Shown here in pieces: positions 2 to 38,000 of a stretch of DNA of 64,000 nt. The stretch's first letter is position 1. Each line of letters starts with the position of its first letter. The translations under genes and the position numbers were made by a program. A model generated the notes under the pieces. That model ran no database searches. It was not told where the DNA came from and was given only the letters and a program-made list of their open reading frames with translations. Where the stretch lies: the IMG/VR virus record IMGVR_UViG_3300008117_000010, positions 46,527-110,526 of that record; one strand, 5' to 3'. Origin of the DNA: a virus.

Positions 2-3000
2 ATGAGTGCTTTACCATTTGGTGTAGATCCAAAATATGTTAAGGAGCATGAAATGTTTCACCATCTGCAAAACATGACGGGTAACTTACATTATGGTACA
101 CCTGTAAAAAGAGCTACTATTCCATCAACCGATGAATTTGCGGCAGACTATTATAACAGAAAAGGATTAGAAGTAGGAGATCTTACTGATGAATTTAGAT
201 ATTATAATCCTGAATTTGGTTTTGTACCAGATGATGTTATATATAACACGTATATTGACTACGAACAATATAATAGACCGTATACTGTAGAGGGTGAAGC
301 TCAAGATTATGAAAACTATATACGTTCTGGTGGCAACTCTATATTTAGAAAAAATGGTGGATCATTAGATAAGTATCAATTTGGTAGACAATATAAAAAA
401 TTCAAAGAAAGCTTACCAGAAAACTTAAGAAATACAAATGAAAAAGATTATAATTTAAAGTATTTATGGAAAAAAGCTGGTAGACCTAGTGATATATTTG
501 AAGCACAACAATGGGATAGAAATAAATCATTTGAAGAAAATTATAATCAAGATATAGCAAACTTAAAAGCTGGAACATATGATTATACAAAAGGTCTTTT
601 TCCTTTAGTAGAGGATGTAGAACAAGACGGTAGTATTAGTTATAATTATCATGGTTCAAGTATTGAACCAACAACATTAAAGTTTTTAAAATCAAAAGAT
701 CATCCATCTTTAATAAAGGAATTAGAGTGGTATTATTCTAATGACCCAACTGCTGTTGATTTTAGAAATCAATATGATTTAGATAAAAGTGGTAAATTTT
801 ATCAGTATATACCAAAAAAACAAAATATAAAAAAGAAAGGTGGTACAACTCTAAAAAAATATCAAACCGGAAAAACAGTTTCACAAGAGTGGACTGAAAT
901 TACAGGAACACCTTGGGCACAAGCCAAAAAACTTGGACTAACTAAAGGAAGTGAAAAAGAAAATCTTAAACTTTTAAATGAAATTAAAAAAGATCCTGAA
1001 AAATATAGAACACTTGCAAGAGGTAATTCTAATTTGCAACCAATAGAAAGGATAGAAGTTCAACCAGAAGCTATAATAACAGAAGATGTAAAACCTGTTA
1101 CTACAGCTAAAAGTGTAACACAACCATTTGATCAAACATATAGAGAGTTATACGGAGAAGAAAAACAAGCACCACAAGATGTAATGAGGGTACCTTTAAT
1201 AGATGCTCCAAAATATACTATAACAAATCCTGATTTATTAAGTGTTCCTTTTGTATATGAAACGGGAGTTCAACCAGACTATTCATATGAAGATAGAGCA
1301 TTTGGTGAATCTGAGTGGAATAAACTTGCGGCTGTTGCATTACCTTCTCCAACTGGAGAATTTGCTCAAGAAATGTTTAATCCATTAAGTCAAGAAGCGA
1401 TAGGAGAATATATTCCTATGGTACAATCAACGCAATTAACAACTCCAGGACCAAATGCATATAAACCAGATTTATCTAATTGTGATCAAGAGCAATGTTC
1501 TGCAGGATTACAATATAACCTAGCATCACAATTAAAAGGTGGTTTTAACGAAGCTCATAATAAATTAGGACTTCAAGGTAATGCTTGGACAATGGGTGAA
1601 AATATTATAAAACATGGTGGACAAAGAATATATGGTCTTGGTTCTGAAATGAATATAAATAGAAGTAAAAATTATGATACTAAAGATATAAGGAAAAAAT
1701 TATATGAGGCAAGAAAATCATATGACTTAGATAAAATATACGAAACCTCACAGGTAGGTGATATTGTTGAAATGTATTATCCCGGTAGTGACTATCAAAC
1801 CGAAGCAATACGTGATGGTAAAGATAATACTGTTACAACACATATAGGACATATTACTGAGAAAGATGGCGTTAAATATGTTACACATAATGTCCATGGT
1901 ACATGGCATACAGATAAATTAGAAACATTATTATCTAGATCAGGAAATAATAAAGGTACAAAAGGAACAGTAATTTCAGGTATTGTAAGACCAGATTATG
2001 GTTGGAGAGATAAGCAAGATGAAAATAGAGCTGTATCTATATCTCCAAATCCTGTACAAGCAATATCTGCTAGTGGTGATAGAAACTATTATCAATTTGG
2101 ACCTGCTGATACAGATAATGATGGTAAAGAAGATGTAGTATCTAGATGGCAAAACAAAGCTATTAATCCGACATCTCAACAATTTGTTAAAGGAATAGAA
2201 GCTGTAGCACCAACTATTGCTAAAGACTTTGGATTATCAAATGATCAACTTGAATTAGTAATGAGAACATCATTTGGTGCATTAGGTAAAGAAAGTTCAT
2301 TCGGTGTAGGAGAAGGATATCTTAAAAAAGCTCGAGCAAGAAAACCTTTAAGAGAATATAAAAAGACTGCTCCAGATTGGTTTCTTGAAGGTGATCCATT
2401 AAGTGAGGGTCTTTCCCAAATAAAATATGATGAGATTTTTAAAGATCCAAAAACAAAATCTCTTCTAAATAAATATGGAATTAAATCAGAAGATCAATTA
2501 TATGATCCAATGTATGCATCTATTGCAACTATGATATTAGGAGCAATGAATTATAAACAATTTGAATTAGCAACAGGATTAAAAGCAGAAGATGTTGATC
2601 CAATAACATTACAAAATATAATGTTACTTGGTCATAATAAAGGAATGCAAAATGTAATAAATAAAGATTTTACAAATGAAGGTGAATTAAAAACTTTTAG
2701 TTTCTTAAATAGAAAAGGTAATAAATATAAAGAGGGTAAGGAACCAACAATATCAGATGCATCAATTATAAGAGGACTCGAAACGTACTCCAATGCGCAT
2801 ATGAATCGAAAATCATATACTAATGAAGGTGGAGATTTTGCAGCCTCTTTAAATATTGATATGGATAAATTAATGGGTCCAAGCAATAATGAAAACTTAG
2901 TTGAATATACTCAACAAGAACTTCCTGAAGAATATGGTCTTGGTGAAGCTCTTCTTGCTGGTGCATATGATAAAGCTTCAGGTAGAGATTATCAAAAAGA

Positions 3001-3496
3001 TAGAGATAAAATAAATGCTGAAATTGAAGCAGCTAAATTAAAAGCAATAAAAAATGCAGAAAAATTATATAAGGGAAGTAAAAGAAAATTAAGACAAGCC
3101 GTAAATAAAATTGAAAAAGAAGCTGCAATAGCCAAATCAACAATTTTAAATCAAGCAAGAAAAGTTAAAAGAAAAGTATCTTCTTTTGAAGAGGGTGGAC
3201 AAATTGATAAAATATATATAGGTAAATATACAATGACACCAAAGATGGAAGATGGTGGTGGATTGAAGAGATGGTTTGCAGAAGAATGGACAGATATTAA
3301 AACAGGTAAAGAATGTGGTAGATCTGGAAAAGAAAAAGGTTCACGTCCATATCCTGCTTGTAGACCAAAAAATAGAATAACTTCTGAAACTCCTAAAACA
3401 GTAAGTGAATTATCTTCTGCTGAAAAAGCTAAATTTAAAAAAGCAAAAAGAGGAAAAGAAAGAATAAAATACAATCATCAAAGGAAAAATAAATAA
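2..3496 (+). CDS. Modular virion cargo protein with CHAP/NlpC-like amidase and SLT-like lytic transglycosylase domains; probably 5'-truncated
   Basis: HEMFH near the N-end. QCSAG..GNAWT..VGDIV..HIGH..THN is CHAP-like (~1481-2000). KESSFG..GLSQI..LYDP..HNKG is SLT-like (~2150-2840). C-terminal GLKRWFAEEW..CGR..YPACRP resembles half of DUF5872. The ORF starts at the window edge. Confidence 0.7.
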   Translation: MSALPFGVDPKYVKEHEMFHHLQNMTGNLHYGTPVKRATIPSTDEFAADYYNRKGLEVGDLTDEFRYYNPEFGFVPDDVIYNTYIDYEQYNRPYTVEGEAQDYENYIRSGGNSIFRKNGGSLDKYQFGRQYKKFKESLPENLRNTNEKDYNLKYLWKKAGRPSDIFEAQQWDRNKSFEENYNQDIANLKAGTYDYTKGLFPLVEDVEQDGSISYNYHGSSIEPTTLKFLKSKDHPSLIKELEWYYSNDPTAVDFRNQYDLDKSGKFYQYIPKKQNIKKKGGTTLKKYQTGKTVSQEWTEITGTPWAQAKKLGLTKGSEKENLKLLNEIKKDPEKYRTLARGNSNLQPIERIEVQPEAIITEDVKPVTTAKSVTQPFDQTYRELYGEEKQAPQDVMRVPLIDAPKYTITNPDLLSVPFVYETGVQPDYSYEDRAFGESEWNKLAAVALPSPTGEFAQEMFNPLSQEAIGEYIPMVQSTQLTTPGPNAYKPDLSNCDQEQCSAGLQYNLASQLKGGFNEAHNKLGLQGNAWTMGENIIKHGGQRIYGLGSEMNINRSKNYDTKDIRKKLYEARKSYDLDKIYETSQVGDIVEMYYPGSDYQTEAIRDGKDNTVTTHIGHITEKDGVKYVTHNVHGTWHTDKLETLLSRSGNNKGTKGTVISGIVRPDYGWRDKQDENRAVSISPNPVQAISASGDRNYYQFGPADTDNDGKEDVVSRWQNKAINPTSQQFVKGIEAVAPTIAKDFGLSNDQLELVMRTSFGALGKESSFGVGEGYLKKARARKPLREYKKTAPDWFLEGDPLSEGLSQIKYDEIFKDPKTKSLLNKYGIKSEDQLYDPMYASIATMILGAMNYKQFELATGLKAEDVDPITLQNIMLLGHNKGMQNVINKDFTNEGELKTFSFLNRKGNKYKEGKEPTISDASIIRGLETYSNAHMNRKSYTNEGGDFAASLNIDMDKLMGPSNNENLVEYTQQELPEEYGLGEALLAGAYDKASGRDYQKDRDKINAEIEAAKLKAIKNAEKLYKGSKRKLRQAVNKIEKEAAIAKSTILNQARKVKRKVSSFEEGGQIDKIYIGKYTMTPKMEDGGGLKRWFAEEWTDIKTGKECGRSGKEKGSRPYPACRPKNRITSETPKTVSELSSAEKAKFKKAKRGKERIKYNHQRKNK

Positions 3497-3538
3497 TATT
3501 TATTATCTTGTAATATAATTCTAACTATAAATATAACT

Positions 3539-3907
3539 ATGGCAACTTTAAACGCAACCTTGGTATTAACTAGCACCACAACTTCATCCGCTAGTTTAAA
3601 TTTAAATGTATCAAAAGTACTTACTGTAGATGTTGATCTTGTAAATACTGGACGCATTTCTTGTCCAACAGTTACGAATACAACTTTGATTCCTAATACT
3701 GTAACAGACAATAAATATGTTTATTTAAAAAATCTTGACCCTGTTAATTTTATTACTGTTAAAGATGATGACCCTATAGCAATTGGTGACTTTATGGAAT
3801 TAAAAGCTGGGGAGTTTGCATTCTTTGTAGTAAAAGGTGGCATAGGATTAAACATTGAATCTGATACAGCTCCATGTATCGTAGAGTATGGTTTTTGGAA
3901 TGAATAA
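3539..3907 (+). CDS. Small beta-rich protein, putative virion structural/decoration protein
   Basis: 122-aa ORF, Thr/Val-rich strands, A-rich leader, lies in the virion block. Confidence 0.55.
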   Translation: MATLNATLVLTSTTTSSASLNLNVSKVLTVDVDLVNTGRISCPTVTNTTLIPNTVTDNKYVYLKNLDPVNFITVKDDDPIAIGDFMELKAGEFAFFVVKGGIGLNIESDTAPCIVEYGFWNE

Positions 3908-3909
3908 TT

Positions 3910-6720
3910 ATGGCAAATGAACCAATAAATAAAGCTCTTTATAATAGAGTTAAAAGTGAAGCCAAACGAAAATTCGATAGATGGCCAAGTGCTTATGGCT
4001 CTGCGTGGCTAGTAAAAGAATATAAAAGACGCGGTGGCAAGTATAAGCAAGATGGTGGTGGTATGTCACAAGACGCACTTAAATCAATGCAATCTTTCTA
4101 TGAAGATTTTCAATCAAATAAATTTGATGCTGATGCATTTAAAAAGACTACAAATAATCTGTATGATTTAGGTTTAAAAAATGAAGGTACTAAAACCAGT
4201 TATTTAAAAAGTGTAAAAGGTCCTGGTCTTTTTGGAACAGGATTGTTTGGTAAAAACTATTATAAGAGACCTGGTCTTTTTTCTAAGGATACATACTATA
4301 CAGATGTAAATGTTCAAAAAGGTTTAGATCAAAAAGGTAATCCTTATTATGTTCCTTTCGATGAATATAATAATGAAAATCTTATTGAACCTATAAATGA
4401 TTTACCTGAATTTCCAGAAATGGCACAAGGTGGCGGTATACCTGAAAGGTATCGTAATATGGGCTTTAATAAAGTTGGTGCTAAAAAACAATCCAATCGT
4501 CCAGGTAAAAAATGGATGGTACTCGCAAAGAAAGGTGATAAATATAAAGTTGTTCATGGTGGCTATAAAGGAATGAAAGATTTTACTCAACATGGTAATC
4601 CTAAAAGACGTGAACGTTTTTGGGATAGAATGGGTGGTCGTGATTCCGCAAAAGCAAAGGATCCATTTTCACCATTGTACTGGCACAAACGCTTTGGTAC
4701 TTGGCAAGAAGGTGGTCAATATAATTATGATATAAATAATCCAATACCCCAATTTGAAATGGGAAATTCAATATTATCTAAAATGCAAAATGAAGCTATG
4801 AGAAAAGGATATCTCAAACAAGGTGGAACTCCATGCTATGAATGTGGTGGTTCTTATGCTAAAGGTGGAACAAATAATCCAGGTTTTAAAGCACTACCGC
4901 CTTACGTTCAACAAAAGATTAAATCAAATATGCAAACAGGAGGAATGACTCCTTTTAATGCAAATCCAGATTATTATAATGAGCGTCTACGCAACTTTAT
5001 TGATTTGGTTAATGGCACCGCTAGTGATAGTCTTTTCTCTGAAATGGAACAAGAAGGTATGATGCCACAAGCACGTTACGGAATGTCATATCTTCCATTA
5101 GCACAAAACGGTAAAGAACAAAAAGTACCCTACGTTTATTACAAAGGTAAACTAATGCCCTATGATGAAGCTGATAGAATGTTACCACAGTTTAACCGCT
5201 TTCCGAAAGGAACTAAAATATATAATGAATATGGTGATGAAATTGGAACTATAAGAGATTATGGTCAAACTGTAAAAGGTGGTAAACCAAAGTTTGAATT
5301 TAAAGCTGCTGATCCAAATCTTACTCAAGAAAAATTAGAAGAGTTTGCAAACTTATATGGACAAGAAGCGTTAGCTAACGCAATGGCTGAAGGATTAATA
5401 GACGAGTACACACCTGTTTCACGTTTTATAGATCAGACAATGGGAAGAGGAGTTACAGCGGCAACTAATCCTTTTGCTGAAGCATCTACAATAAATTATA
5501 ATAACATTGCTGATGATAACATATTAACAGATCCAGATATAAAACGTGCATATGCAGATAATAAAGCTGCAAATAATCAAAATAATAGTAGAACTGGTAG
5601 CGGTACAGGTAGTAATACTGGAAGTGGTGCAGCAACAAGTACAGGAGCAAGTGGTGCACGTGCAACTGTTAAACAACAATTTGAAGAAATCAATGGTCCT
5701 GGTTCTTGGCAAAGAGCAAAAGATGCAGGATTAACAGATGGAAGTGCAGAAGCTAATTTAGCTCTTCTTGAACGCGCACAAAATAATGAAGATGTTTTCG
5801 CAGATGTAGATGAAATAGAAGAAACAACTGTTCCAGAAACAACTGATGAAACAGTAGAAGGAGAAGTAGAAACAAAAGCAGAAGGAGAAGCAGAAACTAC
5901 ACCAGGTACAAGTGGTACAACAGATCAAATTGGATTACAACAAGCACCCGAATTTGCTAATATTAGCTCCTGGACAAATTTTGGAAATGAACCAGTAATG
6001 TATTCAGATCCAGAAACTGGAATGGTAATGAATGTTCCACAAGAAATGCTTAATCAAGGTGCTGGTCAAATGTATGGTCAACAGTTTCCTGTTTATCTTA
6101 AGAAATTTCGTCAAGGACCTTTTGGTACTGTTGCTAAATTTAGACCATATCCAACAGCAGGTGGTTCAGGTAATCTATTTGATAGAATAGCTAATGTATT
6201 TAGCCCTAATCAAGCAGGACCTCAAGTACCACCAAATATAATGGAAGGAGATGAAGATATAATATCTCAATTACAAGAGCAAAAATTATTACGTCCAAGA
6301 GATGTTCGTAAAATGCGTCGTCAAGAATCAAGAGAAATGCGTAGAGATCAACGTGGAAATTTAAGAGAGATGCGTAATGCTGCAAATGATATTATCAAAG
6401 GTAGTAATATGCAAAAAAGAGGAGAGATGTTTGATGCCAGAATGGATATGCGTGATGAGCGTTTTAATGATAGAATGGATAGAAGAGCAAATAGAATTAA
6501 TGAAAGATTTGATAGAAGAATAGAAAGAAATCAAGATCAACTTGAACGATTCCAGGATAGAATGCAAAGAAAAGAAGAAAGAAGAAATAGAAAAGCAGAA
6601 TATGGTGGTATGTCTAATCCATATCTTTATATGTATAAAGAAGGCGGTGAATATTATATGGATGAAAATACTATTAATATGATACTTGCAATGGGTGGTA
6701 ATATTGAATTTATAGATTAA
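3910..6720 (+). CDS. Modular virion cargo protein (DUF5872-like N-terminus, DUF5754-like module, many phi-x-x-GG linkers)
   Basis: 936 aa. N-terminal LYNRVKSEAKRKFDRWPSAYGSAWLVKEYKRRGGKY; module KKWMV..VHGG..DFTQH..RRERF..SPLYW; low-complexity linkers; R/D/E/M-rich C-terminal helix. Confidence 0.6.
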   Translation: MANEPINKALYNRVKSEAKRKFDRWPSAYGSAWLVKEYKRRGGKYKQDGGGMSQDALKSMQSFYEDFQSNKFDADAFKKTTNNLYDLGLKNEGTKTSYLKSVKGPGLFGTGLFGKNYYKRPGLFSKDTYYTDVNVQKGLDQKGNPYYVPFDEYNNENLIEPINDLPEFPEMAQGGGIPERYRNMGFNKVGAKKQSNRPGKKWMVLAKKGDKYKVVHGGYKGMKDFTQHGNPKRRERFWDRMGGRDSAKAKDPFSPLYWHKRFGTWQEGGQYNYDINNPIPQFEMGNSILSKMQNEAMRKGYLKQGGTPCYECGGSYAKGGTNNPGFKALPPYVQQKIKSNMQTGGMTPFNANPDYYNERLRNFIDLVNGTASDSLFSEMEQEGMMPQARYGMSYLPLAQNGKEQKVPYVYYKGKLMPYDEADRMLPQFNRFPKGTKIYNEYGDEIGTIRDYGQTVKGGKPKFEFKAADPNLTQEKLEEFANLYGQEALANAMAEGLIDEYTPVSRFIDQTMGRGVTAATNPFAEASTINYNNIADDNILTDPDIKRAYADNKAANNQNNSRTGSGTGSNTGSGAATSTGASGARATVKQQFEEINGPGSWQRAKDAGLTDGSAEANLALLERAQNNEDVFADVDEIEETTVPETTDETVEGEVETKAEGEAETTPGTSGTTDQIGLQQAPEFANISSWTNFGNEPVMYSDPETGMVMNVPQEMLNQGAGQMYGQQFPVYLKKFRQGPFGTVAKFRPYPTAGGSGNLFDRIANVFSPNQAGPQVPPNIMEGDEDIISQLQEQKLLRPRDVRKMRRQESREMRRDQRGNLREMRNAANDIIKGSNMQKRGEMFDARMDMRDERFNDRMDRRANRINERFDRRIERNQDQLERFQDRMQRKEERRNRKAEYGGMSNPYLYMYKEGGEYYMDENTINMILAMGGNIEFID

Positions 6721-6724
6721 ACTA

Positions 6725-9547
6725 ATGAGAAAAGTAAGAATAAAAAAACTAGCATATGGGGGCAATACTATTGCCCCTCCATATATGCCAGATCAATATA
6801 GCGTACCCGAAACTAAATTTAATAATACATTAACTAAGGTACCAATACCTGAAGCAAATATAGAAGCTGAAGGTGGTGAAACTGCATTGTTGCCTGATGT
6901 TGGTGGAACTAGTGCATTATATAATATTCGTGGACCTCGACACAGCGAAGGTGGTGTAGCTTTAAATGTACCTGAAAATTCATTTATATATAGCGACACT
7001 GCTAAAATGAAAATTAAAAACGAGGAGATATTAAAAATGTTTGGATACTCTGATGGTGAAATTAAAAAGATTAGAAAATCAAAAGGAATTACACCAGCAG
7101 AAATTTCTAAGAAATATCAAATAAATAAATTTCGCGAAGTATTACAAGATCCTAATAGTAATAAAAGAGAAAGAAAAACTGCAGAGTTAAATATTAAAAA
7201 TGCTAATATTAAATTAGCTATTCTTGCTCTTTATCAAGAATCAATGAAAGGTTTCCCTGATGGTATTCCTATTGTTGCTTTACCATTTATTGCTAAATTC
7301 GGAATAGATCCTTCAAGCTTTTTACCTGTTACACCAGAATCCATAAATCAAGCTCAACCTAATCAACCAATGATGGAAGAAGAGGAGAATGAGGAAATGG
7401 AAAACTATGAAGAAGGTGAAGAAGAAGAATATGAAGAGGAGGGAATGGAAGAAGAATATAATGAAGAATATGAGGAGGGTGAAGGAATGCCAATGGCAGA
7501 AGATGGAATGGCTAATGCAGGTAATCTTTTAGATTTTTTAGCTAACTTTGATCCAACTGTAACACAACAAGAACCTGATATTACTATACCCGATGCTAAT
7601 TTTAATGTTAAATTAAAAGAAATAGGTAAGTATGATGCAGATATGATGTTAGCTGGTTTAGATCTAGCAAATAATTTAGCACGACTACCAGAAGAAAAAA
7701 GAAGAGAGGAAGCATTTAGAAAAAAAACAGGAGCAGATGAATTATATGCGGATGCTGAAGGAAGTCAAGGATCATATGATGTTAATACAGGAGAATTTAT
7801 ACCTACTACAGAAGAACAAACACCTGTACAATTTACAGGTGATGCAACATACGGTAAATATGGTGGAGGTTTAAGAAAGTTTGTTTATCAAGATGGAGGA
7901 GAATTTGACCCAGAACTAGGAGTTTATATGACATACCAAAACGGTAGAGAAGTTTATATGGATGCTAATGATGTACCTGCACCTGCGGGTTGGAGTCCTG
8001 ATGATTATAATAGAATTCTTGAAGATGAATATGAAATGCCTCAAGCTCGATATGGAATGCAAATAGCACAAAATGGTGCAGAAAAAAAAGGAATGTATAA
8101 TCGAGTAGAAGAAACTTTTAAAGGGAATGAAAAACTAAAACAACTATTGTATGAAAAAACTTTAGCTGCTTTAAAAAATGAATCATATATAAATAAAAAT
8201 GCCCTTAAAAGAAAAGGAGTAGATATAGATAAAGCAATTAAAGAACTTACTCCCGAAAAAGCACTTGAAGCATTTTTAGCAATGCAGAAAAGAAACTATG
8301 GGGTAGTAGAAAATAAAGGAGCTGAATGGATACGTTCACAATCACAATCAAATAGTAAAGCATTTGATGATGCATATGGTGAATTAGAACTTGGTTCTGC
8401 TGATCCATTAAATGTAGCACTTGGTCAAGCTTCTTATTTAGGATATCGTGACTTGTTAGAAGATCGTGATGCAGGAAAACTTGAAGAAGATGTTAATGCT
8501 GATCTTGCTCCTTTTATTGTAAGACAAGTAGGTAAACAAGATGAAAAATATGGATTTGATCCAGAACAAGATATAAGTAAAATTGATGCAATTGGTACTA
8601 ATACTACTGTAGGACAGTTAGCAGGGATTAAACAAGATGAGGATGTAGAAGAGACACCTGAAGCAACAACACCAAAAACTCCTGCTCCAGAATTAATGCC
8701 TCAAACTTTAGGTGAAGCAGCAGCTGCACCACCATCAGTAGGACCATATCCACAAGATGTTCTTAGCATGGGTGAAGCATTTGCTAATCGTATGGGATTG
8801 CGAAGAACTTTTCCATGGGCTCCTAAAATTGAACCTGTATTACCTCAAGCAACATTCTTTGATCCACGTAGAGCAGAAGCTAATACAATGGCAGCATATA
8901 ATACTGCACTTAATGAATTAGGTGCATATGCAACACCACAGTTTTTAAGTTCACGTGCAGGTTCCGTTGCAGCAAATGCAATGAACTCTGCTGCAGATAT
9001 CATTAGTCAAGTACAAAATAATAATGTACAAATAGCAAATTCATTTGAAACTCAAAAAGCTAGTATATTAAATAATGCTAACTTAACAAATGCAGCACAA
9101 GCAAAACAATTGTATGATGACACAACAATGTTAAATCAACAATATGAAAATGCTAAAAGAGATACAAGAAATAAACTTTTGAGTACTATTAAAAATAGTA
9201 TAACCAATATGGCTACTACGGATGTAATAAACCAAATATATGGTGATAGGTTTATGATTGATCCGACAATAGGCGGTGGATTAAGATTTTATAATCCACC
9301 TGAATCTATTTCTCCTGCTGCTCAAACACAAAGCATGGGTGAACAATTTGCTCAATTTGCAAAACAGTTTGAGGGACTTGATATTGAAGATAAAACTTTA
9401 TTAGAATTGTTTCTTAAGGGACAAACTGGTACAGCTTCTACAAATAAAGAAGTTGATGCTCTGGCAGCAATGAGTTCAATACCACAAGCAGCATACGGAG
9501 GTAGTAGAAAACTTAGAAAAGTTAGAATAAAAAAAGCACCTAGATAA
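6725..9547 (+). CDS. crAss-like virion cargo protein
   Basis: 940 aa. EAEGGE...GPRHSEGGV...FIYSD is a motif I recognise from crAss-like cargo proteins. Poly-Glu tract, Ala/Asn/Gln-rich helical C-terminus, lies upstream of the giant genes. Confidence 0.6.
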   Translation: MRKVRIKKLAYGGNTIAPPYMPDQYSVPETKFNNTLTKVPIPEANIEAEGGETALLPDVGGTSALYNIRGPRHSEGGVALNVPENSFIYSDTAKMKIKNEEILKMFGYSDGEIKKIRKSKGITPAEISKKYQINKFREVLQDPNSNKRERKTAELNIKNANIKLAILALYQESMKGFPDGIPIVALPFIAKFGIDPSSFLPVTPESINQAQPNQPMMEEEENEEMENYEEGEEEEYEEEGMEEEYNEEYEEGEGMPMAEDGMANAGNLLDFLANFDPTVTQQEPDITIPDANFNVKLKEIGKYDADMMLAGLDLANNLARLPEEKRREEAFRKKTGADELYADAEGSQGSYDVNTGEFIPTTEEQTPVQFTGDATYGKYGGGLRKFVYQDGGEFDPELGVYMTYQNGREVYMDANDVPAPAGWSPDDYNRILEDEYEMPQARYGMQIAQNGAEKKGMYNRVEETFKGNEKLKQLLYEKTLAALKNESYINKNALKRKGVDIDKAIKELTPEKALEAFLAMQKRNYGVVENKGAEWIRSQSQSNSKAFDDAYGELELGSADPLNVALGQASYLGYRDLLEDRDAGKLEEDVNADLAPFIVRQVGKQDEKYGFDPEQDISKIDAIGTNTTVGQLAGIKQDEDVEETPEATTPKTPAPELMPQTLGEAAAAPPSVGPYPQDVLSMGEAFANRMGLRRTFPWAPKIEPVLPQATFFDPRRAEANTMAAYNTALNELGAYATPQFLSSRAGSVAANAMNSAADIISQVQNNNVQIANSFETQKASILNNANLTNAAQAKQLYDDTTMLNQQYENAKRDTRNKLLSTIKNSITNMATTDVINQIYGDRFMIDPTIGGGLRFYNPPESISPAAQTQSMGEQFAQFAKQFEGLDIEDKTLLELFLKGQTGTASTNKEVDALAAMSSIPQAAYGGSRKLRKVRIKKAPR
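6728..6748 (+). repeat. RKVRIKK-coding 21-mer, copy 1 (copy 2 at 9515-9535)
   Basis: agaaaagtaagaataaaaaaa vs agaaaagttagaataaaaaaa, 1 mismatch, at the two ends of one ORF. Confidence 0.8.
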
Positions 9548-22506: not shown

Positions 22507-25500
22507 ATGCAACTTTGTAATATTGATAAGAGTCAAAGAGAATTACTATATAGAGCTATTGCAGCTATAATTAACGACGCAATACAAAATAAACAACCAA
22601 TTGATACTAAAAAAATTGGTAATCAAATATATGATATAGTTTATAAAAAATCTCAGGATAATGCAAAAGCCTTGTCATATGTTTTATTAGTTCCAAAAGC
22701 AATAGATCAAATATTATCATTCAATGATAATTTCAAAGACTACGCCGTAGATAACAAGTTCGAATTTGATGAGTTAGCTAAATTAGTATCATCATTAAAT
22801 AAGTCTTCAGAAGAAACTATATTAAATGATATATCTACTTTCTTAGGAAAGATGTCTAATAAAAATTCATTTGAAGATGCACAAAAGGATTTACAAAATC
22901 TTCAAAGTGAACAAGCTAAAAATAAAAACTCTAAAATATTAGTACCATCATCTTATTTAGCTAAGCCCGAATCTCTTTATACAACAACTGGTCAACAAGG
23001 TTTGCGTGAAGATATCAATATACCAGATCCTTCAATGCAATTTTATTATGATATCATAAAAAAATTAAATACTAATTATATTAATGAAGAGGGCGGAGTA
23101 GTATATCCAAATGTTAAGAGCGGTTTATTTCTAAGTATAATTTCAGGAGTAAATATTGCTGATAATGAAATGTATACTAGAGATGCTGGAAATCGTAATG
23201 AGTATAATAAAAATTTCTTTCTAGCACTTACCGATAACCTTGGTAAAATAATGTATTTCGACACTAACTATAATGTAGTTGAAAGGAGTGCTGGTAAACC
23301 TATATACTTTCCGTTAAGAACTAATCTTGATTCTATTGTTGACAAATTAAATATTGGGCAATCACAACTAGAATCATTAAGAGAAGCCGCTAAATTTATT
23401 AATCAAGATAAGGTTAATAATAGAGTAGTAAATAAAATAACATTTAAGAGTGACGGATATCTTAGTACAAGTAATAGTCTACCTAAAGTAGATATAGCTA
23501 GTATTAAAAATAATAATATACTAACTTTTGTTACCGTACCAGGTAGCAATCAATTATATGTAAGCTCTAAAGGAGAATATCATTTTACAGTAGATGTTTC
23601 TTTTAAAGATTTTACAACAGTAAGAGCTAATCTCATTGCTGATTTAATTCTTAATCCAGTTTATAAAGATGGTAAACTGTTAAGTAATAATGATAAATAT
23701 AATATTCTAAGTAATTGGCTCTTTCAAAGAGAAATGAAATTTGGCCAAAAGAATAAAAAGTTTTATGTAACCCTTAATGGTCAATCACTTAATCTAGAGG
23801 ATAAAGAAGATTCAAAAGAAAAGATTGTTAACTTCTTAACTAGAAAGATTAAAACAGATAAAACAGAATATCAAAATAAATTTACATGGCAAAGCCGCTT
23901 ACTTGAAAATAATGAAACAATATCATTATTTAGTTTAAGTGTTGAAGACGGTAAATATATTTATACAGATAATCCAGTCTCTTATCAAGAATATTTAAAG
24001 CAAATAACATTTGCTAAAATTCAAACTGTTGATGGAGAAATATTTCCAATGAATGGATATATTGGTTATGAGCTTGGTAATAGAATTAGTAAGCCAAAAC
24101 CAGTTGAAACAAAAGTTGAAATAAAAAAACAAACTCCAGTTACATTAGATACGAATGAATATAATCGTGCAGTAAAAGAAGCAGATAGTAAAAAACCAAT
24201 TGAACAAAACTTCTTTGATGGTTATAGACCTAATTCAGATAAAACAAAAATCCATACCATACGACCTGAAATCACATCTATATATGGTAAAGGTGTAAAA
24301 ACACTTAAACTTGTTCAAGAAGGTATTAGAACAAGATCAACTCGCTTAGCTAATTGGATGAAAGAAAATAATCCCAAAGTAGGTGATTATTTTTGGCAAA
24401 TAAATAAAAAGAATCCAAGTGAAAAAGTACTAACTCGAATTACTGCAGTTTATGATAAAACTGATCCCCGCTTTAAAAACAATTGGTTTAAAGAAGGATG
24501 GGTTGATTCAGATTTTAAATATGTAGAAGACTATGCAGGTGCTATAGAATTTGAAGTTATTAAATCAGTTGTTGCAATAGGTGTTCAACCTCAAGTTACT
24601 ACTGAAGAAAAATTCGATTTAATACCAACTCGTCCGATTTCAGAAATAGAAAAGGAAATTGAATCATTTGAAAGTGAAATTAGATATGCAGCTGGCCAAT
24701 TAGAACAGCTTCAAACAAAAATGGAGCTTGTAGAAGATGAAGAAACTATTGAATCTTTTATTTTATCTCAATTTACTCCTGTTAATCCTGAGTCAGCTAG
24801 AAAAGAAACAGGAACAAACATTGGAACAAAACAAGATATTAATCCAGCATTATTAAATAAAAGAGGTCCAAGTGTTGAAAGACTTGCTGAAGAAATTGGT
24901 TCATTAGCAAGAGGAGTACCTTATCATTTTAGAGCAGAGGATGATTATATCCGTGATCAAATTATTGAAATTTTAGTAAAAGGTAAAGCTAAATATAAAG
25001 AAGAATTACAAGGTGGTAATCTTCAAGATATAAAATATTATGAAGAAAGAATTAATGATATATCAAAAAAACTTGATGAGTTAAATGTTGAATTAGAAAA
25101 TGCTAAACTAGCGCCACCAGTTTCTACTCCTCAAGAAACAGTTCAAATAGAATCAATTGAAGAATCAATTGTTAATGAATCTGAGACTAAAGAAGAAGAC
25201 ATTGATTTAGGTGAAATTGATCCTAATGATTTAAAGAATTTATTAGAAAAAAGAATTCTTCAAAAAGAAAGCGAAGTAAAAGCAACAAATGAAAAAATTA
25301 AAAAAGCACTACCGTGGTATAATAGTATAAAAACTAAGAGCGGTAAAAAACTCTCTAGTTTTTTACCAATTAAAGAAATGTTTGATGCAGTTAATACATC
25401 AAATCCAAATGCTGTTGCACACTGGTCAATGTCCGGTATAACATTATTTAATGGTAGTGATTACTCTGATTTATATCATGAAGCTTGGCACGCATTTACT

Positions 25501-28500
25501 CAGCAGTTTTTAACTACTGAAGAAAGAAATAATTTATATAATGCTGTTCGTGGTAAATCAGGAACATTTGAAGACTACAATGGAAATATTGTTGAGTTTT
25601 CATTAGCCTCAAAAAAACAAATAGAAGAATTTCTTGCAGAAGAATTTAGAGAGTTCATGTTGCGAGATGGTAAAGGTATGTATGAAAAGAAATCAATCTT
25701 TTCTAAAATCTTTAATAAAATTCGTGAGTTACTATTATGGTTATTTGATCGTACAACTTATTATGATGTCTACAATAATAGTAAAGCAACTAGAAATATT
25801 TCAAGACTTTTTAATGAACTTCGTATTGGAGAGTTAGCAGAACCTGTAAATGAAGTTGATCCAGACTTTGCTATTAAAGGTTTAGATAGAGTAATTAAAG
25901 TAAAAGATAGTAGCGATACATTTACAATAGAGGAGAGTAAAACTATAAGTGATACAATAGATAGTTTATTTAGTGAGTATAGTGATAAAGTAAATAACGC
26001 AACAAAAGTTAAATCAGCATCTATTCAATTACAAATAAGTCCAACATTCCAATTAAATGCATATAAGTATGCAAAGAATAGATTAATTCAAAGGAAAAAT
26101 GAATTAGTTCAAAAAGTAAAAACAAAACTAAGTGAAAAGAAAATTGATGATCTTAATACAGAAGAACTCAATTTATTTCGTAAAGACATTAAAAATATCA
26201 ACTTATTAAAAAAAGCGATTAAAGCTTTTATAATTCCTGAGAATCTTAACAATGTAAAAAGTGCAAAAGAAATTGATGGAATTATTAGTAGTCACCAACA
26301 ATTATCTGAATACTTAAAAGATATTGTTCAATTAGAAGAAGAATATAACATTCTTAATAATAATGTTATTGCAGATAGAGCAGGTAATGCAAACTCATTT
26401 GAACAACTTACAGATCCCAAACTCTTATATACATTTGGTGGTGTATTTGAAAGAGATGAGAAAGGAGAAATTATAAAAAATTCTTTAGGTTTTAATAAAA
26501 CAATGGCTCCTAAGCGTGTATTTAACAAGCTTAGTAACATACTGGAGACAAATGATAATGAAAAAAGACCGAATAATATAACGGCGCTTTATAAAAAAAT
26601 GGAATCTTTACAAAAAACAGATCCATTTATTAAGGACATACTAAATAAATTAGGTAGTCCATATACTACTAATACAAATGTTAATAGCTTATGGTCAGCT
26701 TTAGAAGTTTTAATCTTACCTGTAGCACATGTAATGCGTGCTGAAATTGTAAAGGGAGATAACAATTCTATATCTGCTGTATTTGTAACAAATGCTTCGC
26801 TTGAAACAGAATCAGCAATCCGTTCATTTGCAAACTATACTGCTGTACTTGACTCCTCAGATCCAAATAACTTTTTATTTGAGAATGCTGATGGTGTTAA
26901 TATAATAGACCTGAGATCTATTTTTGTACCAACAGAGGGTAGACCAAAAAATTATGGTAACAGTAAAGCTGCTCAAGAAAACCCTTTAGAATTTTTAAGA
27001 GCCATTGGTATATATTTACCAAATGATCCTAATGTCATAAAAGAGTTAATGACAGAGGAAGCACAGGAATATATAAATCGTTTATATAATGCCGCTTTAG
27101 AAATTAAAAATTATAATTATAGTAAAGGCACTAAAGAAAGTGACAAAATAGAAGTCTTTAGTATTAAAGAAATACTAAAAGATTATTCAAAAGATCCAAA
27201 ATATAAAAATGTTAAGAAGCTTCCTAAAGGACAAAGCGTTGCCAAAAAATTCTTTACAAAACTTTACTTAAAGTATTCTGATCAATCAAATAACTTAAGT
27301 ATTACAACAGTTGATGATAAAACTGTATTCCAAAGATCTTTGCCTAATACATTAATGATGAAAGCACAAATTATAAATAGTGCTGATTCATTTAATAATT
27401 TAGTAAGTATTCCTGAAACTGAAGATTTAGCAAAAGAAATAAACGGTAAAACAAAAAACCCTTGGTCAAAGGCATCTCAATTATTAAACAAAGTTTTGTT
27501 TGATGAAAAGGGTAATAAAAGAGAAGGTGCTAGAATAGATATTGCTTCTTTAGATGGATTAAAAATAAGATTAGATGAAGTAGATTTAGCTGCCATTAAA
27601 TCATCAGACTCAGATCCATACTCAAAACAATTATTAGATATTATTTTCACATTAGAATATGGTGTATCTGAAGCAACACGACACGCGGGTAAAAGTTCAA
27701 CATTCCTTTTTGAGATAACAAGAAGTGATGGCTCTAAACATTATATTAATCTTGAAAAGTTTACAAGAAATATTAGTAAAGGTGAAAATATATTTAATAG
27801 TGGTATTGTAGATGCCGTAAATATTTTTGTAAATTATTTAGCTTCAGAATATGAGCGCATTCAACTTGCAACCAATGATCCAGAAAATAAAAATATAAGA
27901 ACTGGTAATGGTAAATCCATGGCCGAAGTAGGATCAGAATTTTTATTGTTTAAAGATATTATACCTAAATCAATACTAGACAATATTAAGTCTATTGAAG
28001 GTGTTGAAACATATGAAGATTTTTTACAGCATTTAGATAATAATGTTTCTTTAAGAGACTCTATAAAGAAAAACATATATAATTACTTAAACAACGTAGT
28101 TAAACAAGAATTAAATGATTTCAATAAACTAAATGTTAAAAAAGAATTCAATGATATTCTTCATAAGAAAATGAAATCAGCAAGTCAAAGAGCATTAAAG
28201 GGTGGTAAAATAACTAAAGAAACAGAACTCAATTATAATCAATTACGCAATAGTGCTATTACTGCTTATACAATAAATTCATTAATACATAACATTGAGA
28301 CTGGATTACTTTTTTATGGTGATCCAGCAATATTTAATAATAATAAACAGGATTATCAGAAACGAAATTCGGGTGCAGGATCAACAGGTATTGTAACCCG
28401 TACAGATGATGCCTATTTACAATTCATTAATAGCAAAGGTGGTCTAGGAAAAGTAAAGAATGAACAAAGAAATTTTGATGGTACCTTAAATACGGTAGTA

Positions 28501-35052: not shown

Positions 35053-38000
35053 TGGCAACATGTGTAATAAATACTCCTGAATTTGAAGCAATAGAAAAAG
35101 TAACTAATAGTGCTACCGCATGGAAAGAATTTGCTAGATCAAAAATTACTGGAGAAGCAATGCGCTCTCCAGAAACAGTGCTAGAAGAATCATGGTATAG
35201 AGGACAATTTCTAAATAAAAAACCAGGTGAACCATGGATAGATAGAATGGATGGTTTTCAACAACAAATGAATTCATGGCCTGAGTATAATCTTTTAGCT
35301 AATCCAATTAAATATGATTTTAAAGGTCATAATGATGCAGTTAGTCTTTCTGCTATAAGACAATTAGCAGATAGGCTAAAAGAAAAAACTGGAATTAATT
35401 ATGAAATTATTTCACAAGAACAAGCAATTGAGTTAACAAAGCATTTAGATATTAAACAACAATATGTTACTGGTAAGCCAGCATTTTATTTAGGAGGTGT
35501 AGCTTATTTAGTTAGTGATTTTGTTTCTGCAACTAATGTGCTACACGAATTTGCACACCCTATTATTAAAGCAATTGCTGTAGATAATCCAAAACTATTC
35601 AATAATCTTTATACACAGATACAAAATCAATATCCTGATATAATAGAATACCTTAAGAGTGAATATGATTATCTAGATATTAATTCAAGTGAATTTAAAG
35701 AAGAAGCAATTGTTACTGCACTTGATTTATTTCATAGCATAAAACAAGAAAATCCTAAAGCAAAAGGTCCATTTATAGATTTATTAAATGATATACTTTA
35801 TGCTATAAGAAAATTTTTAAGAAAGATTACTAATAATAAAGTAAAGGTTGAAAATATAAATGAGTTCTCAACTTTAGAAGACCTAGCTAATCTAATGACT
35901 GATGATACTACATTTGAGTTAGATGATCAAATAATTACTAATAGTGACTTTGCAGCATATGCTTCGACATATAATGATTATTTAAATGAATTGAGAAAAG
36001 CTGCTAGTCCTGCGGATATACAGGGGGCATTACTTAATACATATGATATTGTAATTGAGCAATTAAAAGCATTAGAAAATAATCCTAATTATCGTTTTGC
36101 AGCTGAAATATTAAAAGATAAATATGGTGAATTAGAAGTTCAAAATATTGTTAAAAATATTAATCGTGTTAAAGATGATGCAAAAGCTTTAAAAGATCAG
36201 GCTAAAATGGATAGAGCTCGTGCTAGTGAGTTTCTTAAATCTATTTTACTATTAGAAGAAATGATTAAAAAAACTAATGCTAGTTTAAGAACACTCGAAA
36301 AAGAAGCAAAAGAAAACGAAAATAATAATAGAGATAACCGAGATGTTCTTCAGAATGTTTATTATCTCAATAATCTTTTAAACGGTTGGAATGAATTAAT
36401 AAACGAATATATAAATACACTTGAAGAGAATAATGTAGATATAGAAAATGATTTCTATAAAATGCTTAGTGCAATAAAAAGAAAAATAGAAAACACACAA
36501 TCAATTGCAAATAACATATACACATATAAAATTACCGATGTTTTAAGTGCTGAAATTCAACCATTGATGGAAGCTATTGACATGCGTTATGAAGCTCTAT
36601 TAAAATTTTATAAAGATCGTAATGCGCCACAATGGAAAATAGCAGATGTAGAAAAAGAATATGCAGAAATAAAACTTAATCCTGGAAAAATCCAGGAAAT
36701 GCTAAAAGGAGATTTAGGAGATGCACATTTCTTGAATTCATTTTTAGAAGGTTATATGAATAACCAAGATCCGGTTGTATTTGCATTTGCTTCTTATGTT
36801 AAAAATGGATTGAATGATCTTAATTCTAATTCATTAGAAAAAATGAATAAGTTTCTAGTTGAGCTAGAACCATTATTACAAGCAGCTGGATTTAATCGTA
36901 ACAGATTATCTGATTTAGGTGAGCGTTTAACTCAAATAGATTCAACACCATATAGAGAAAGAAAAGAATTAAAATTTAAAAAGGTATATAAGTTCATTAA
37001 TCCTTGGAAAGGTCAAGATGAAGCAATTGCAAAAATGAACGAGGCAATTAATAATGCTCGTAACGTAGCAAGAGAGTCAGGTGATTACACAGAAGTTCAA
37101 AGATTAATGCAAGAGAAAGAAGACTTTCAGCGTAAGTATTTTTATACAGAGTACACTCAAAAATATTACGATAGATATAACATCTTAAATAAAGACGAGT
37201 TAGGTAGAGAAGCAAAAGATTTATTAACTACAATTGATTTTAAAATAAAAGAATTACAAAACTCTATTCTTTCACCAACTCAAGATATTGTTGGACTAGA
37301 TGAACTTGATGCATTACAGCGTGAGAGAAAATATCTTTTTTCTCTTACTGATGAGAATGGTAAACTAAAGTCAGGTAGAGATCTTGAAATTGCAAAGCGT
37401 TTACAAGAGTATAATGCTTCTGCAAAAGATATGTTTACTAAAATAACTTTTCCAGGATTATTTGAACAAGCATATCGTGAAGCAGAAAACTATTTTATCG
37501 ATCAAGGATATGAAAGAGGTACGCCTGCCTATGAGCAGTTAATGAACGAATGGTTAAAAAAGAATTCTAAAATAGAATTAAGTTCTGATTTCTATGTAAT
37601 GCGTGCTAATTTATACGCTGAGATTCAAGAACTTGAAGAACAATATAGAGACCTCGTATCTCAACTTGGATACGATCAAGGAATAGCGAGAACAGAAGAA
37701 GAAATGCTAGATCTATATAAAGAATTAAATGATATTCTATATAGACATAGAGATGAAAGTGGTCAACCACAGGGATCACTAATGAATAAAGAAACACTTG
37801 AAAGAGTTTTCTTTTTAGAAAGTGAAATTGAACGTATAAAAACTGAAGCTCCAAGTTTTAATAATCTTACACGAGATGAAAATTCTTGGTTAAGAGATTA
37901 CTTTGATCGTATTAAAGCTGGTGAAGAAATATCAGATGAAGATAAAGCTAGAGCAAGAGAGTTAAATAAAAAGAAAGTATCATTAAAAGGTAAAAAGTAT

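What the first reader, a model, noticed from the sequence alone, without database searches (positions are those of the whole stretch)
2..9547. Cargo proteins built from modules separated by phi-x-x-G(G) linkers: candidate polyprotein or packaging code
Seen: three ORFs are punctuated by one short motif. ORF 2-3496 has RKNGG, YQFG, KKKGG, YQTG, FEEGG, MEDGG. ORF 3910-6720 has KQDGG, MAQGG, WQEGG, FEMG, LKQGG, YECGG, YAKGG, MQTGG, ARYG, AQNG, AEYGG, YKEGG, LAMGG. ORF 6725-9547 has LAYGG, AEDG, GKYGG, YQDGG, ARYG, AQNG, AAYGG. MPQARYGM..AQNG is shared by two of the genes. The motifs fall at domain edges; for example MAQGG..WQEGG brackets one domain. Known: adenovirus and ASFV maturation proteases cut after GG. 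Inference: these are maturation cleavage sites or repeated capsid-loading tags that let the phage string exchangeable cargo domains together.
Basis: partly seen in the sequence, partly recalled or inferred. Interest (0 to 1): 0.75.

Follow-up and report, generated by a model that had tools for sequence, protein, structure and literature searches.

The report
Gly-Gly seam motif in crAss-like cargo proteins
Three proteins that this marine crAss-like phage probably carries in its particle are strings of small swappable modules. The joints and ends carry a conserved aromatic/Met-x-x-Gly-Gly peptide that is real and widespread, looks more like an uncut hinge or handle than a protease site, and has not been tested for cutting.

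Summary
Every listed motif is present. Gly-Gly is enriched in ORF2 and ORF3 but not ORF1. The strict form [F/Y/W/M]-x-x-G-G is about 7 times denser in the three genes than in the rest of the 110-kb phage proteome. The loose single-Gly form is not enriched in ORF2 or ORF3.

ORF2 has more than 800 homologues and ORF3 about 1,700 clusters. In them the hydrophobic residue sits three places before the first Gly (7.3x and 3.6x over shuffles). It is not enriched two places before (0.95x and 1.3x).

The motifs bracket predicted folded islands. Relatives have inserted, deleted, duplicated, moved, split or fused modules at them.

The adenovirus/ASFV analogy fails on register: known GG proteases read hydrophobic-x-G-G. 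Seven protease families gave no match in the complete genome. In crAss001 cargo protein C1 one such joint is modelled as continuous chain in the virion.

A single HExxH in every ORF1-position protein keeps self-processing possible. A shared terminal peptide on ORF3 and a small basic head protein keeps a docking-tag reading alive.

Best reading (0.45): an uncut seam. This scan has noted the same motif on at least seven other genomes. I found no paper describing it.

The parts
2..3496 (+). ORF1, 3' 1164 codons of a 1406-aa cargo-position protein (gene starts 725 nt upstream of the window). A mosaic with one HExxH and a C-terminal DUF5872 C-half.
3185..3262 (+). Two phi-x-x-G-G seams (F-E-E-G-G and M-E-D-G-G-G) just before the K module of ORF1.
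3254..3493 (+). K module, the C-half of DUF5872 (PF19197). It is always preceded by phi-x-x-G-G. Here it is the last module. In relatives L006-L009 it is the second module.
3539..3907 (+). 122-aa ORF between ORF1 and ORF2, with no family match. It is absent from the four syntenic relatives and is not part of the motif system.
3910..6720 (+). ORF2, 936 aa, the member with the clearest motif enrichment. It belongs to a family of more than 800 proteins with DUF5872 N-half plus DUF5754/Tlr6F.
3922..4053 (+). A module, the N-half of DUF5872: a helical hairpin with pLDDT above 90.
4420..4716 (+). DUF5754/Tlr6F domain with its two bracketing seams (M-A-Q-G-G-G and W-Q-E-G-G). Stand-alone homologues stop at the Trp.
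4813..4944 (+). Cluster of four seams (residues 302-345) around mini-modules. Relatives delete or duplicate units exactly here.
5062..5112 (+). Junction peptide M-P-Q-A-R-Y-G ... A-Q-N-G, ORF2 copy.
6595..6717 (+). Nearly invariant C-terminal tail of the ORF2 family, with three GG seams, each just after a short predicted helix.
6725..9547 (+). ORF3, 940 aa. Its family has about 1,700 clusters. It has a conserved N-domain (30-205) and a helical C-domain. It is a probable counterpart of crAss001 cargo protein C1.
6725..6763 (+). N-terminal tag of ORF3: a basic heptapeptide followed by L-A-Y-G-G. The pattern (basic run, then L-P-K-A-x-x-G-G) is conserved across the family.
7853..7900 (+). Two seams (residues 377-392) between a low-confidence linker and a small beta module.
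8036..8077 (+). Junction peptide M-P-Q-A-R-Y-G ... A-Q-N-G, ORF3 copy, inside a low-pLDDT linker (431-452).
9479..9544 (+). C-terminal tag of ORF3: I-P-Q-A-A-Y-G-G followed by the same basic heptapeptide as at the N-terminus.
6728..6748 (+). 21-nt direct repeat, copy 1, encoding the basic heptapeptide at the start of ORF3.
   Evidence: D20
9515..9535 (+). 21-nt direct repeat, copy 2 (20 of 21 identical), encoding the same heptapeptide at the end of ORF3.
   Evidence: D20

Best explanation
The window comes from a complete 110.5-kb marine crAss-like phage. ORF1, ORF2 and ORF3 lie between a muzzle-sized gene and three giant genes. That is the position of the cargo proteins that crAss001 stores in its capsid and tail and ejects into the host.

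The three proteins are beads on a string: small, autonomously folding modules joined by short flexible stretches. Each joint, and several protein ends, carries a conserved peptide whose core is aromatic/Met-x-x-Gly-Gly.

I read this peptide as an uncut seam. The hydrophobic residue is the last buried anchor of the upstream module. In about a third of cases it is the C3 position of a helix whose end is capped by the glycines, in a Schellman-type cap. The two glycines give the only residues able to make the tight turn or hinge.

Such seams would let each module fold and unfold on its own. The chain could then be packed, threaded through the portal and tail as crAss001 C1 appears to be, and refold after ejection. 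Because the seam is the one conserved element between otherwise unrelated modules, it is also where modules have been swapped, moved, split into separate genes or fused.

Shown here: the motif, its register, its position at module edges, and module traffic at it. Inferred: virion location, absence of cleavage, and the hinge role.
For: Identity and context:
- Crass_capsid, portal and terminase matches.
- Complete genome with end repeats.
- Conserved gene order in four relatives and in crAss001.

Motif enrichment and register.

Seams at module edges:
- AlphaFold models show confident islands separated by stretches with pLDDT under 50.
- In ORF2, 7 of 15 GG runs sit 0-2 residues after a predicted helix end (42, 174, 242, 344, 899, 912, 929).
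- In ORF3 the junction-type GGs lie in or beside low-confidence linkers.
- The residue after GG is enriched for I, Y and M, as expected for the C'' position of a Schellman cap (textbook knowledge).

Module traffic at seams:
- An insertion, a deletion and a tandem unit bounded by GG among close ORF2 homologues.
- Variable module order across the family.
- The K module is second in relatives and last here, each time behind phi-x-x-G-G.
- Stand-alone Tlr6F proteins stop at the Trp two residues before the GG.
- ORF3-type N-termini occur internally in longer proteins, just behind a seam of the A-A-Y-G-G type.
- Homology-block ends are 2.2x enriched at the motif.

Against cutting:
- In the crAss001 virion, C1 residues 425-552 are modelled as one domain (PMC10172136). 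That stretch starts with A-F-G-G and contains two more GGs.
- The same paper places other parts of C1 on the far side of the portal tunnel.
- Virion bands of 150, 270 and over 300 kDa fit unprocessed giant cargo proteins (PMC6235969).
- The register differs from known GG proteases.
- No protease family was found.
Against: - Two invariant glycines across homologues below 40% identity is more constraint than a passive linker needs.
- The helix-cap reading covers only 7 of 23 GG runs in ORF2 and ORF3 together. None of the 8 in ORF3 follows a helix.
- The motif is kept in front of the K module even when K is a separate small protein. There the initiator Met supplies the hydrophobic residue in 10 distinct loci. 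That suggests a function tied to the peptide itself.
- The seam is longer than five residues in many places ([L/M]-x-x-[Y/A]-Q-x-G-G). That looks like a recognition peptide.
- Every ORF1-position protein carries one HExxH, so a cargo-borne peptidase may exist.
- The crAss001 evidence concerns one true joint only, in a protein whose homology to ORF3 is weak (E 0.02-0.03; PF25725 not matched).
- No experiment on this phage or a close relative exists.
Confidence: 0.45

Rival explanations
1. Docking or packaging handle. The seam/terminal peptide (a basic run plus [L/M]-P-[K/Q]-A-x-x-G-G at ends, phi-x-x-G-G inside) is a short linear motif. It would be bound by a virion part (portal, tail barrel, muzzle, scaffold) or by another cargo protein. 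Anything carrying it would be loaded and held in order. This is functionally like the capsid-targeting sequence of T4 internal proteins.
For: - The same peptides sit at both ends of ORF3. They are encoded by a 21-nt direct repeat and are also present at both ends of its closest homologue.
- They sit at both ends of an 84-aa very basic protein encoded between a scaffold-like acidic protein and the major capsid protein.
- Similar peptides sit at both ends of crAss001 C1.
- The N-terminal pattern is conserved across about 1,700 ORF3-family clusters.
- The motif persists in front of stand-alone K proteins.
- crAss001 C1 is held by short ordered segments on the portal, the tail barrel and perhaps the muzzle.
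Against: - The three giant genes downstream, presumed cargo by position and size, show no excess of GG or of the motif. It therefore cannot be a general loading requirement.
- A dozen or more copies per protein is unusual for a targeting signal.
- No binding partner is identified.
- The ordered crAss001 C1 segments named in the paper (214-245, 425-552) are mostly not the motif itself.
Confidence: 0.25
2. Maturation or post-ejection cleavage sites. The strings are polyproteins cut at or next to G-G. The cutter would be a cargo-borne zincin (the HExxH module of ORF1-position proteins or of the giant proteins) or a host enzyme. Cutting would release the modules in the head or in the infected cell, as proposed for polyvalent proteins.
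For: - Each of five ORF1-position proteins has exactly one HExxH, with a per-protein chance of 0.002-0.016. Two of the giant proteins have one as well.
- Iyer et al. 2017 (PMC5512222) propose autoprocessing by zincin domains in virion-delivered multidomain proteins. They cite P1 DdrB, which is processed before packaging.
- The glycines are invariant and the joints are predicted to be exposed.
- Modules also exist as separate genes in other phages.
Against: - The register is phi at P5, not P4, unlike adenain, ASFV pS273R, Ulp/DUB, C39 and coronavirus PLpro sites (site consensus from established knowledge).
- No clan CE, HK97, ClpP, T4 or MPTase-PolyVal family matches the genome.
- The HExxH contexts do not align with each other. 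The one in ORF1 has no family match and no homologue of similar length.
- Natural gene boundaries fall two or three residues before G-G, not after it.
- One joint is continuous in the crAss001 virion model.
- N4 virion RNA polymerase, with a zincin domain, is packaged unprocessed.
Confidence: 0.2
3. Chance or composition. The motif would be a by-product of Gly-rich, Met/Tyr-rich low-complexity sequence picked out by eye.
For: - It includes single-Gly forms and R/K/G/A as 'phi', and these are not enriched in ORF2 or ORF3.
- ORF1 alone shows no GG excess.
Against: - Within-protein shuffles keep composition, yet the strict motif is 7.3x and 3.6x enriched at exactly one register. The neighbouring register is at 0.95x and 1.3x.
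- The GG columns are invariant in alignments.
- Density is about 7 times that of the rest of the proteome.
Confidence: 0.02

Closest known systems
Cargo proteins C1 (gp45) and C2 (gp46) of Bacteroides phage crAss001 (Bayfield et al. 2023, PMC10172136)
   Same: - Same gene position, after the muzzle-sized gene and before giant genes.
- C1 has the same 'language'. A small Lys-rich module is bracketed by GGs and is homologous to a module of ORF2-family proteins. It also has an aromatic-G-G followed by x-N-P-Y, and basic N- and C-terminal peptides with GG.
- C1 is described as spanning portal and tail as an extended chain.
   Different: - ORF3 does not match Pfam crAss_CARG1.
- Profile-profile similarity to the portal-binding domain is weak (E 0.02-0.03).
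- Fold searches did not recover the C1 chain.
- Here there are three or four cargo-position genes rather than two. They carry DUF5872 and Tlr6F modules that I did not find in crAss001 C1.
- The paper does not mention the motif.
Polyvalent proteins of phages and conjugative elements (Iyer, Burroughs, Anand, de Souza, Aravind 2017, PMC5512222)
   Same: - Large multi-module proteins thought to be delivered with the DNA.
- Extreme architectural variability.
- Cell-wall and peptidase-like modules: SLT and LysM in the L007 relative, and HExxH in all ORF1-position proteins.
   Different: - No match to the MPTase-PolyVal model.
- The modules here are mostly tiny (20-100 aa) and of unknown function.
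- That paper's text contains no occurrence of the word 'linker' and describes no conserved junction peptide.
Di-glycine protease sites: adenovirus protease, ASFV pS273R, Ulp1/deubiquitinases, C39 bacteriocin leader peptidases
   Same: A G-G pair preceded by a hydrophobic residue, repeated in virion core proteins.
   Different: - In those sites the hydrophobic residue is at P4 (phi-x-G-G). Here it is at P5, and P4 is not enriched.
- No clan CE protease is found in the genome.
- No cleavage is shown.
Capsid-targeting sequence of phage T4 internal proteins
   Same: A short shared terminal peptide on several different head-internal proteins. Here these are ORF3 and the 84-aa basic protein.
   Different: - The T4 tag is N-terminal only and is removed by the gp21 prohead protease after L/I-x-E. 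Here there is no gp21-like protease.
- The peptide also occurs at C-termini and many times inside the proteins.
Schellman-type helix C-cap (Aurora, Srinivasan and Rose, helix termination by glycine; from general knowledge)
   Same: The pattern hydrophobic(C3)-x-x-G-G-hydrophobic(C''). In ORF2, 7 of 15 GG runs directly follow predicted helices.
   Different: - An ordinary cap needs one Gly, not an invariant pair.
- Many seams lie in predicted disorder or beta turns.

Membership tests
LxGG-type di-glycine protease cleavage sites (adenain, ASFV pS273R, Ulp1/DUB, C39, PLpro) | Hydrophobic residue at P4, two places before the first Gly (phi-x-G-G) | tested here: not met
   F/Y/W/M at -2 from the first Gly is 0.95x (ORF2 family) and 1.3x (ORF3 family) of shuffles. 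At -3 it is 7.3x and 3.6x.
LxGG-type di-glycine protease cleavage sites (adenain, ASFV pS273R, Ulp1/DUB, C39, PLpro) | A cognate clan CE cysteine protease encoded by the virus | tested here: not met
   PF02902 and PF00770 give no match at E<=1 in the complete genome. C39 was not searched.
LxGG-type di-glycine protease cleavage sites (adenain, ASFV pS273R, Ulp1/DUB, C39, PLpro) | Peptide bond after G-G is cut in mature particles | not testable with these tools
   Needs proteomics. The only indirect datum is the continuous chain across one joint in crAss001 C1.
Polyvalent proteins (Iyer et al. 2017) | Many unrelated domains in one polypeptide, with architectures that vary between related elements | tested here: met
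   Alignments and module maps.
Polyvalent proteins (Iyer et al. 2017) | Zincin-like MPTase domain | tested here: inconclusive
   PF18818 is not matched. However, one HExxH is present in each of five ORF1-position proteins, against a chance of 0.002-0.016 each.
Polyvalent proteins (Iyer et al. 2017) | Delivered into the host with the DNA | not testable with these tools
   Inferred from gene position only.
Crassvirus cargo protein 1 (Pfam PF25725 crAss_CARG1) | Match to the portal-binding domain model | tested here: not met
   There is no match in the genome at E<=10 and none for the ORF3 N-terminal 258 aa at E<=5. crAss001 gp45 scores 2.3e-66 in the same search. hhalign gives only E 0.018-0.033.
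Crassvirus cargo protein 1 (Pfam PF25725 crAss_CARG1) | Gene directly downstream of the muzzle gene and upstream of the giant virion genes | tested here: met
   Gene order in this genome, in four relatives and in crAss001. The muzzle identity here rests on size and position only.
DUF5872 (PF19197) and DUF5754/Tlr6F (PF19058) | Score above the curated Pfam cut-off | tested here: met
   - ORF1 C-terminus: 51.9 bits.
- ORF2 N-terminus: 43.2 bits.
- ORF2 residues 194-241: 39.2 bits.
All against cut-offs of about 27.5 bits.
T4-type capsid-targeting sequence | Shared terminal peptide on several internal head proteins, removed by a prohead protease | tested here: inconclusive
   A shared terminal peptide is seen on ORF3 and an 84-aa basic protein. 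No gp21-like protease is found. Removal is not testable.

The most novel reading that the evidence does not exclude
The seam peptide is a true cargo code. The terminal form (a basic run plus L/M-P-K/Q-A-x-x-G-G) would dock proteins to the portal-tail channel or the scaffold so that they are loaded. The internal phi-x-x-G-G copies would be cut, in the head or after ejection, by the HExxH module carried in the ORF1-position protein. Any module bracketed by the peptide would thus become a deliverable, releasable effector. This would be a di-glycine processing system with a new register (P5) and a new metallopeptidase-type enzyme, shared by thousands of marine and gut crAss-like phages.
Probability: 0.15. 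Interest if true: 0.8.

Novelty: new variant of a known kind. Interest (0 to 1): 0.55.

Why it matters
How crAss-like phages load several megadaltons of protein into the particle and pass it through a narrow tail is an open question. These phages are among the most abundant in the gut and are common in the sea.

A single conserved peptide that marks every joint and several termini of the cargo proteins gives that question a handle:
- It tells where the modules begin and end.
- It predicts which residues to mutate.
- It gives a precise search term (neo-termini after G-G) for existing virion proteomics.
- It explains how the cargo repertoire is reshuffled between phages.

If the joints turn out to be cut or docked, it would define a new packaging or processing signal. 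If not, it is a clear natural example of a hinge grammar for proteins that must unfold and refold in transit.

Tried and rejected
- Complex prediction of the DUF5872 N-half (ORF2 1-52) with the C-half (end of ORF1) gave no verdict, score 0.00. It is not used either way.
- Foldseek against the PDB for both models, and VIA-align wide for ORF3, gave only generic long-helix matches. They did not recover crAss001 C1.
- phmmer of ORF3 and ORF1 against PDB sequences found nothing meaningful.
- tblastn against 50,697 phage records found no relative of ORF3. For ORF2 only the DUF5872 N-half matched, in two roseophages. Megablast of 20 kb found nothing. No close cultured relative with proteomics is therefore available.
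- Single modules of an ORF2-family protein do hit gut crAss-like phages.
- Pfam on sub-regions of ORF1 gave no family.
- The protein-atlas look-up of the HExxH region gave only unnamed viral clusters below the trust level.
- A homologue search with the HExxH region returned only the protein itself.
I used the search for related loci instead.
- PHROGs and Pfam did not identify the three giant proteins as RNA polymerase. Their cargo status rests on size and synteny.
- A DNA-level recombination signal was considered. The first Gly codon of the seams is GGT in 28 of 34 cases, against 57% genome-wide. This is as well explained by avoidance of the Shine-Dalgarno-like GGAGG, so I drew no conclusion.
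- Pup-like or ubiquitin-like C-terminal G-G tags were considered and dropped. The motif is mostly internal and no ligase context was seen.
Full report
**What the window is.** The window is bases 46,527-110,526 of a 110,526-bp virus record. The record has a 113-bp end overlap and is rated complete. Upstream genes match a large terminase, a portal and the Crassvirus major capsid protein family. G+C is about 30%. This is therefore a crAss-like phage, and its closest relatives come from IMG/VR environmental contigs.

The gene order is: a 1686-aa gene, ORF1 (1406 aa), a 122-aa ORF, ORF2 (936 aa), ORF3 (940 aa), a 1071-aa gene, then genes of 3239, 4181 and 1892 aa. Four relatives show the same order without the 122-aa ORF. 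crAss001 has muzzle gp44, cargo C1 gp45, cargo C2 gp46 and then giant RNA-polymerase-associated proteins in the same arrangement (PMC10172136). That ORF1-3 are virion cargo is thus an inference from position. Cell-wall modules (LysM, SLT) in the ORF1-position protein of relative L007 support it.

**The observation.** ORF 2-3496 is truncated by the window edge, and the full protein has three more candidates near its N-terminus.

- Within this phage alone the evidence is moderate. GG is enriched in ORF2 (17 vs 9.5, p 0.0075) and ORF3 (10 vs 5.2, p 0.025) but not in ORF1.
- The strict motif [FYWM]-x-x-G-G is 6 vs 1.4 in ORF2. It is 0.30 per 100 aa in the three genes, against 0.04 in the rest of the proteome.
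- The single-Gly form is not enriched in ORF2 or ORF3.

The case becomes strong with relatives. ORF2 has more than 800 homologues with the same DUF5872 plus DUF5754 content. ORF3 has 1,715 cluster representatives.

- In 120 ORF2 homologues GG is twice as frequent as expected.
- A hydrophobic residue three places before the first Gly is 7.3x over within-protein shuffles. In 150 ORF3 representatives it is 3.6x. Two places before, the values are 0.95x and 1.3x.
- The GG columns are invariant in alignments of sequences that are otherwise 35-50% identical.

**Module edges.**
- AlphaFold with family alignments gives ORF2 as confident islands: residues 1-48, 170-265, 320-343, 580-640, a long helix 780-897, and the tail. 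Stretches with pLDDT under 50 separate them.
- ORF3 has an N-domain (30-205), a helical domain (450-640) and long helices (670-860). Its termini and linkers are disordered.
- The junction-type motifs lie in or at the borders of the low-confidence stretches.

Comparative evidence agrees:
- One close homologue has a 42-residue insertion that begins and ends with a seam and lacks a unit running from one seam to the next. Another has a tandemly duplicated 8-residue seam unit.
- Module order differs between subfamilies.
- The K module (DUF5872 C-half) is the second module in relatives and the last one here, each time right behind phi-x-x-G-G.
- Two stand-alone Tlr6F proteins stop at the Trp that supplies the hydrophobic residue of the downstream seam.
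- The N-terminus of ORF3-type proteins is found inside longer proteins, directly behind a seam.
- Ends of BLAST homology blocks among 273 family members fall within 2 aa of the strict motif 2.2 times more often than random positions do. This is partly because the conserved GG anchors the alignments, which is itself the point.

**Is it a cleavage site?** The analogy to adenovirus and ASFV fails a simple test. Adenain, pS273R, Ulp/deubiquitinases, C39 leader peptidases and coronavirus PLpro all read phi-x-G-G, with the hydrophobic residue at P4 (established knowledge). Here P4 is the one position that is not enriched, and the hydrophobic residue is at P5.

- The complete genome gives no match to Ulp1, adenain, HK97 prohead protease, ClpP, T4 gp21, eCIS-core or MPTase-PolyVal models.
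- Natural gene boundaries do not fall after G-G. Stand-alone Tlr6F ends two residues before it. Stand-alone K proteins start three residues before it, with the initiator Met in the hydrophobic position.
- In the crAss001 virion, C1 residues 425-552 are modelled as one portal-bound domain. That stretch begins A-F-G-G, directly after a module homologous to one in the ORF2 family, and contains two more GGs. At least that joint is therefore intact in the particle.
- The authors place another C1 segment on the other side of the portal tunnel.
- crAss001 virion gels show bands of 150, 270 and over 300 kDa, consistent with unprocessed giant cargo proteins.

Three points keep cleavage possible:
- Each of five ORF1-position proteins has exactly one HExxH, with a chance of 0.002-0.016 each. 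The contexts do not align, and the one in ORF1 has no family or homologue.
- Zincin-mediated self-processing has been proposed for polyvalent proteins.
- Two invariant glycines is a strong constraint.

**Is it a tag?**
- The seam is often longer than five residues. A form [L/M]-x-x-[Y/A]-Q-x-G-G recurs in ORF1, in relatives, and as the conserved N-terminus of the ORF3 family, where it follows a basic run.
- ORF3 begins and ends with the same basic heptapeptide next to an aromatic-G-G. The heptapeptide is encoded by a 21-nt direct repeat. Its closest homologue shows the same at both ends.
- An 84-aa very basic protein encoded between an acidic scaffold-like protein and the capsid gene has the same N-terminal peptide and a similar C-terminal G-G plus basic tail. 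crAss001 C1 has comparable termini.
- These facts resemble the shared targeting peptide of T4 internal proteins.
- Against a general loading signal, the three giant genes have no excess of the motif, and no partner is known.

**Most likely mechanism.** I favour an uncut seam. A terminal hydrophobic anchor is followed by a double-Gly turn or hinge.
- In ORF2, 7 of 15 GG runs follow a predicted helix within two residues.
- The residue after GG is enriched for I, Y and M. This is the pattern of a Schellman-type helix cap.
- The other seams are in beta turns or disorder.

Such seams fit proteins that must be stored partly unfolded, threaded through the portal and tail, and refolded (model in PMC10172136). 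They also explain the module traffic. I give this 0.45, a docking handle 0.25, cleavage 0.2 and chance 0.02.

**Relation to known things and novelty.** The proteins are new members of known kinds: crAss-like cargo proteins and polyvalent-type mosaics. Their modules include DUF5872 and Tlr6F, which are widespread in phages, giant viruses and polinton-like viruses.

The conserved seam peptide and its register are not mentioned in the crAss001 papers or the polyvalent-protein paper that I read. My searches found no paper on it. This scan has already noted the same motif on at least seven other genomes, with the same open question.

- the register test;
- the helix-cap reading;
- the moved K module;
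- the natural split forms;
- the negative protease searches;
- the failed crAss_CARG1 membership test;
- the shared termini with the small basic head protein.

Noticed in passing
loci L011-L082 (for example L027:232-581, L011:1155-1560): In 43 distinct small phage loci the two halves of the Pfam family DUF5872 are never in one reading frame. In 10 loci the stop of the N-half overlaps the ATG of the C-half (TAATG). In 33 loci the C-half is in the +1 frame and overlaps the N-half gene by about 45 nt. There, a GGAGG-like box lies a few bases before an in-frame TTG, and the overlap is conserved at nucleotide level. The two halves are either two coupled small proteins or a programmed frameshift product.
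   Followed up: partly
outside the window: genome 26774-27028 (+), i.e. L001:13774-14028: An 84-aa very basic protein lies between an acidic, scaffold-like 401-aa protein and the major capsid gene. It has the same N-terminal peptide (basic run plus M-P-K-A-Q-x-G) and a C-terminal G-G plus basic tail as ORF3. It is a candidate internal head or DNA-binding protein.
   Followed up: partly
window 6728-6748 and 9515-9535: A 21-nt direct repeat (20 of 21 identical) encodes the same basic heptapeptide at the very start and very end of ORF3. The closest homologue (P0127) also has it at both ends. Its function is unknown.
   Followed up: partly
window 3539-3907: A 122-aa Thr/Asn/Val-rich ORF with no family match sits between ORF1 and ORF2. 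It is missing from all four syntenic relatives, so it is a likely recent insertion.
   Followed up: partly
ORF1 full-length residue 258 (window about 47-61); L006-L009 ORF1-position genes; window 22507-40730: Each ORF1-position protein has exactly one HExxH, in contexts that do not align with each other. The 4181-aa and 1892-aa giants also have one each. These are possible diverse zincin modules in cargo proteins.
   Followed up: partly
window about 4225-4290 (ORF2 residues 106-127): There are three closely spaced G-L-F-G/S repeats in a predicted disordered stretch. They are reminiscent of nucleoporin GLFG repeats. Relatives keep only one copy.
   Followed up: no
window 22507-35052, residues 3720-3891 of the 4181-aa protein: A weak match to the 2OG-Fe(II) oxygenase superfamily (E 1.8e-05, below the Pfam cut-off) lies inside the largest presumed virion protein.
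   Followed up: no
window 2-9547, Gly codons of the seams: The first Gly of the GG seams uses GGT in 28 of 34 cases, against 57% genome-wide. The seams therefore read GGTGG at DNA level. This may simply avoid the Shine-Dalgarno-like GGAGG.
   Followed up: partly
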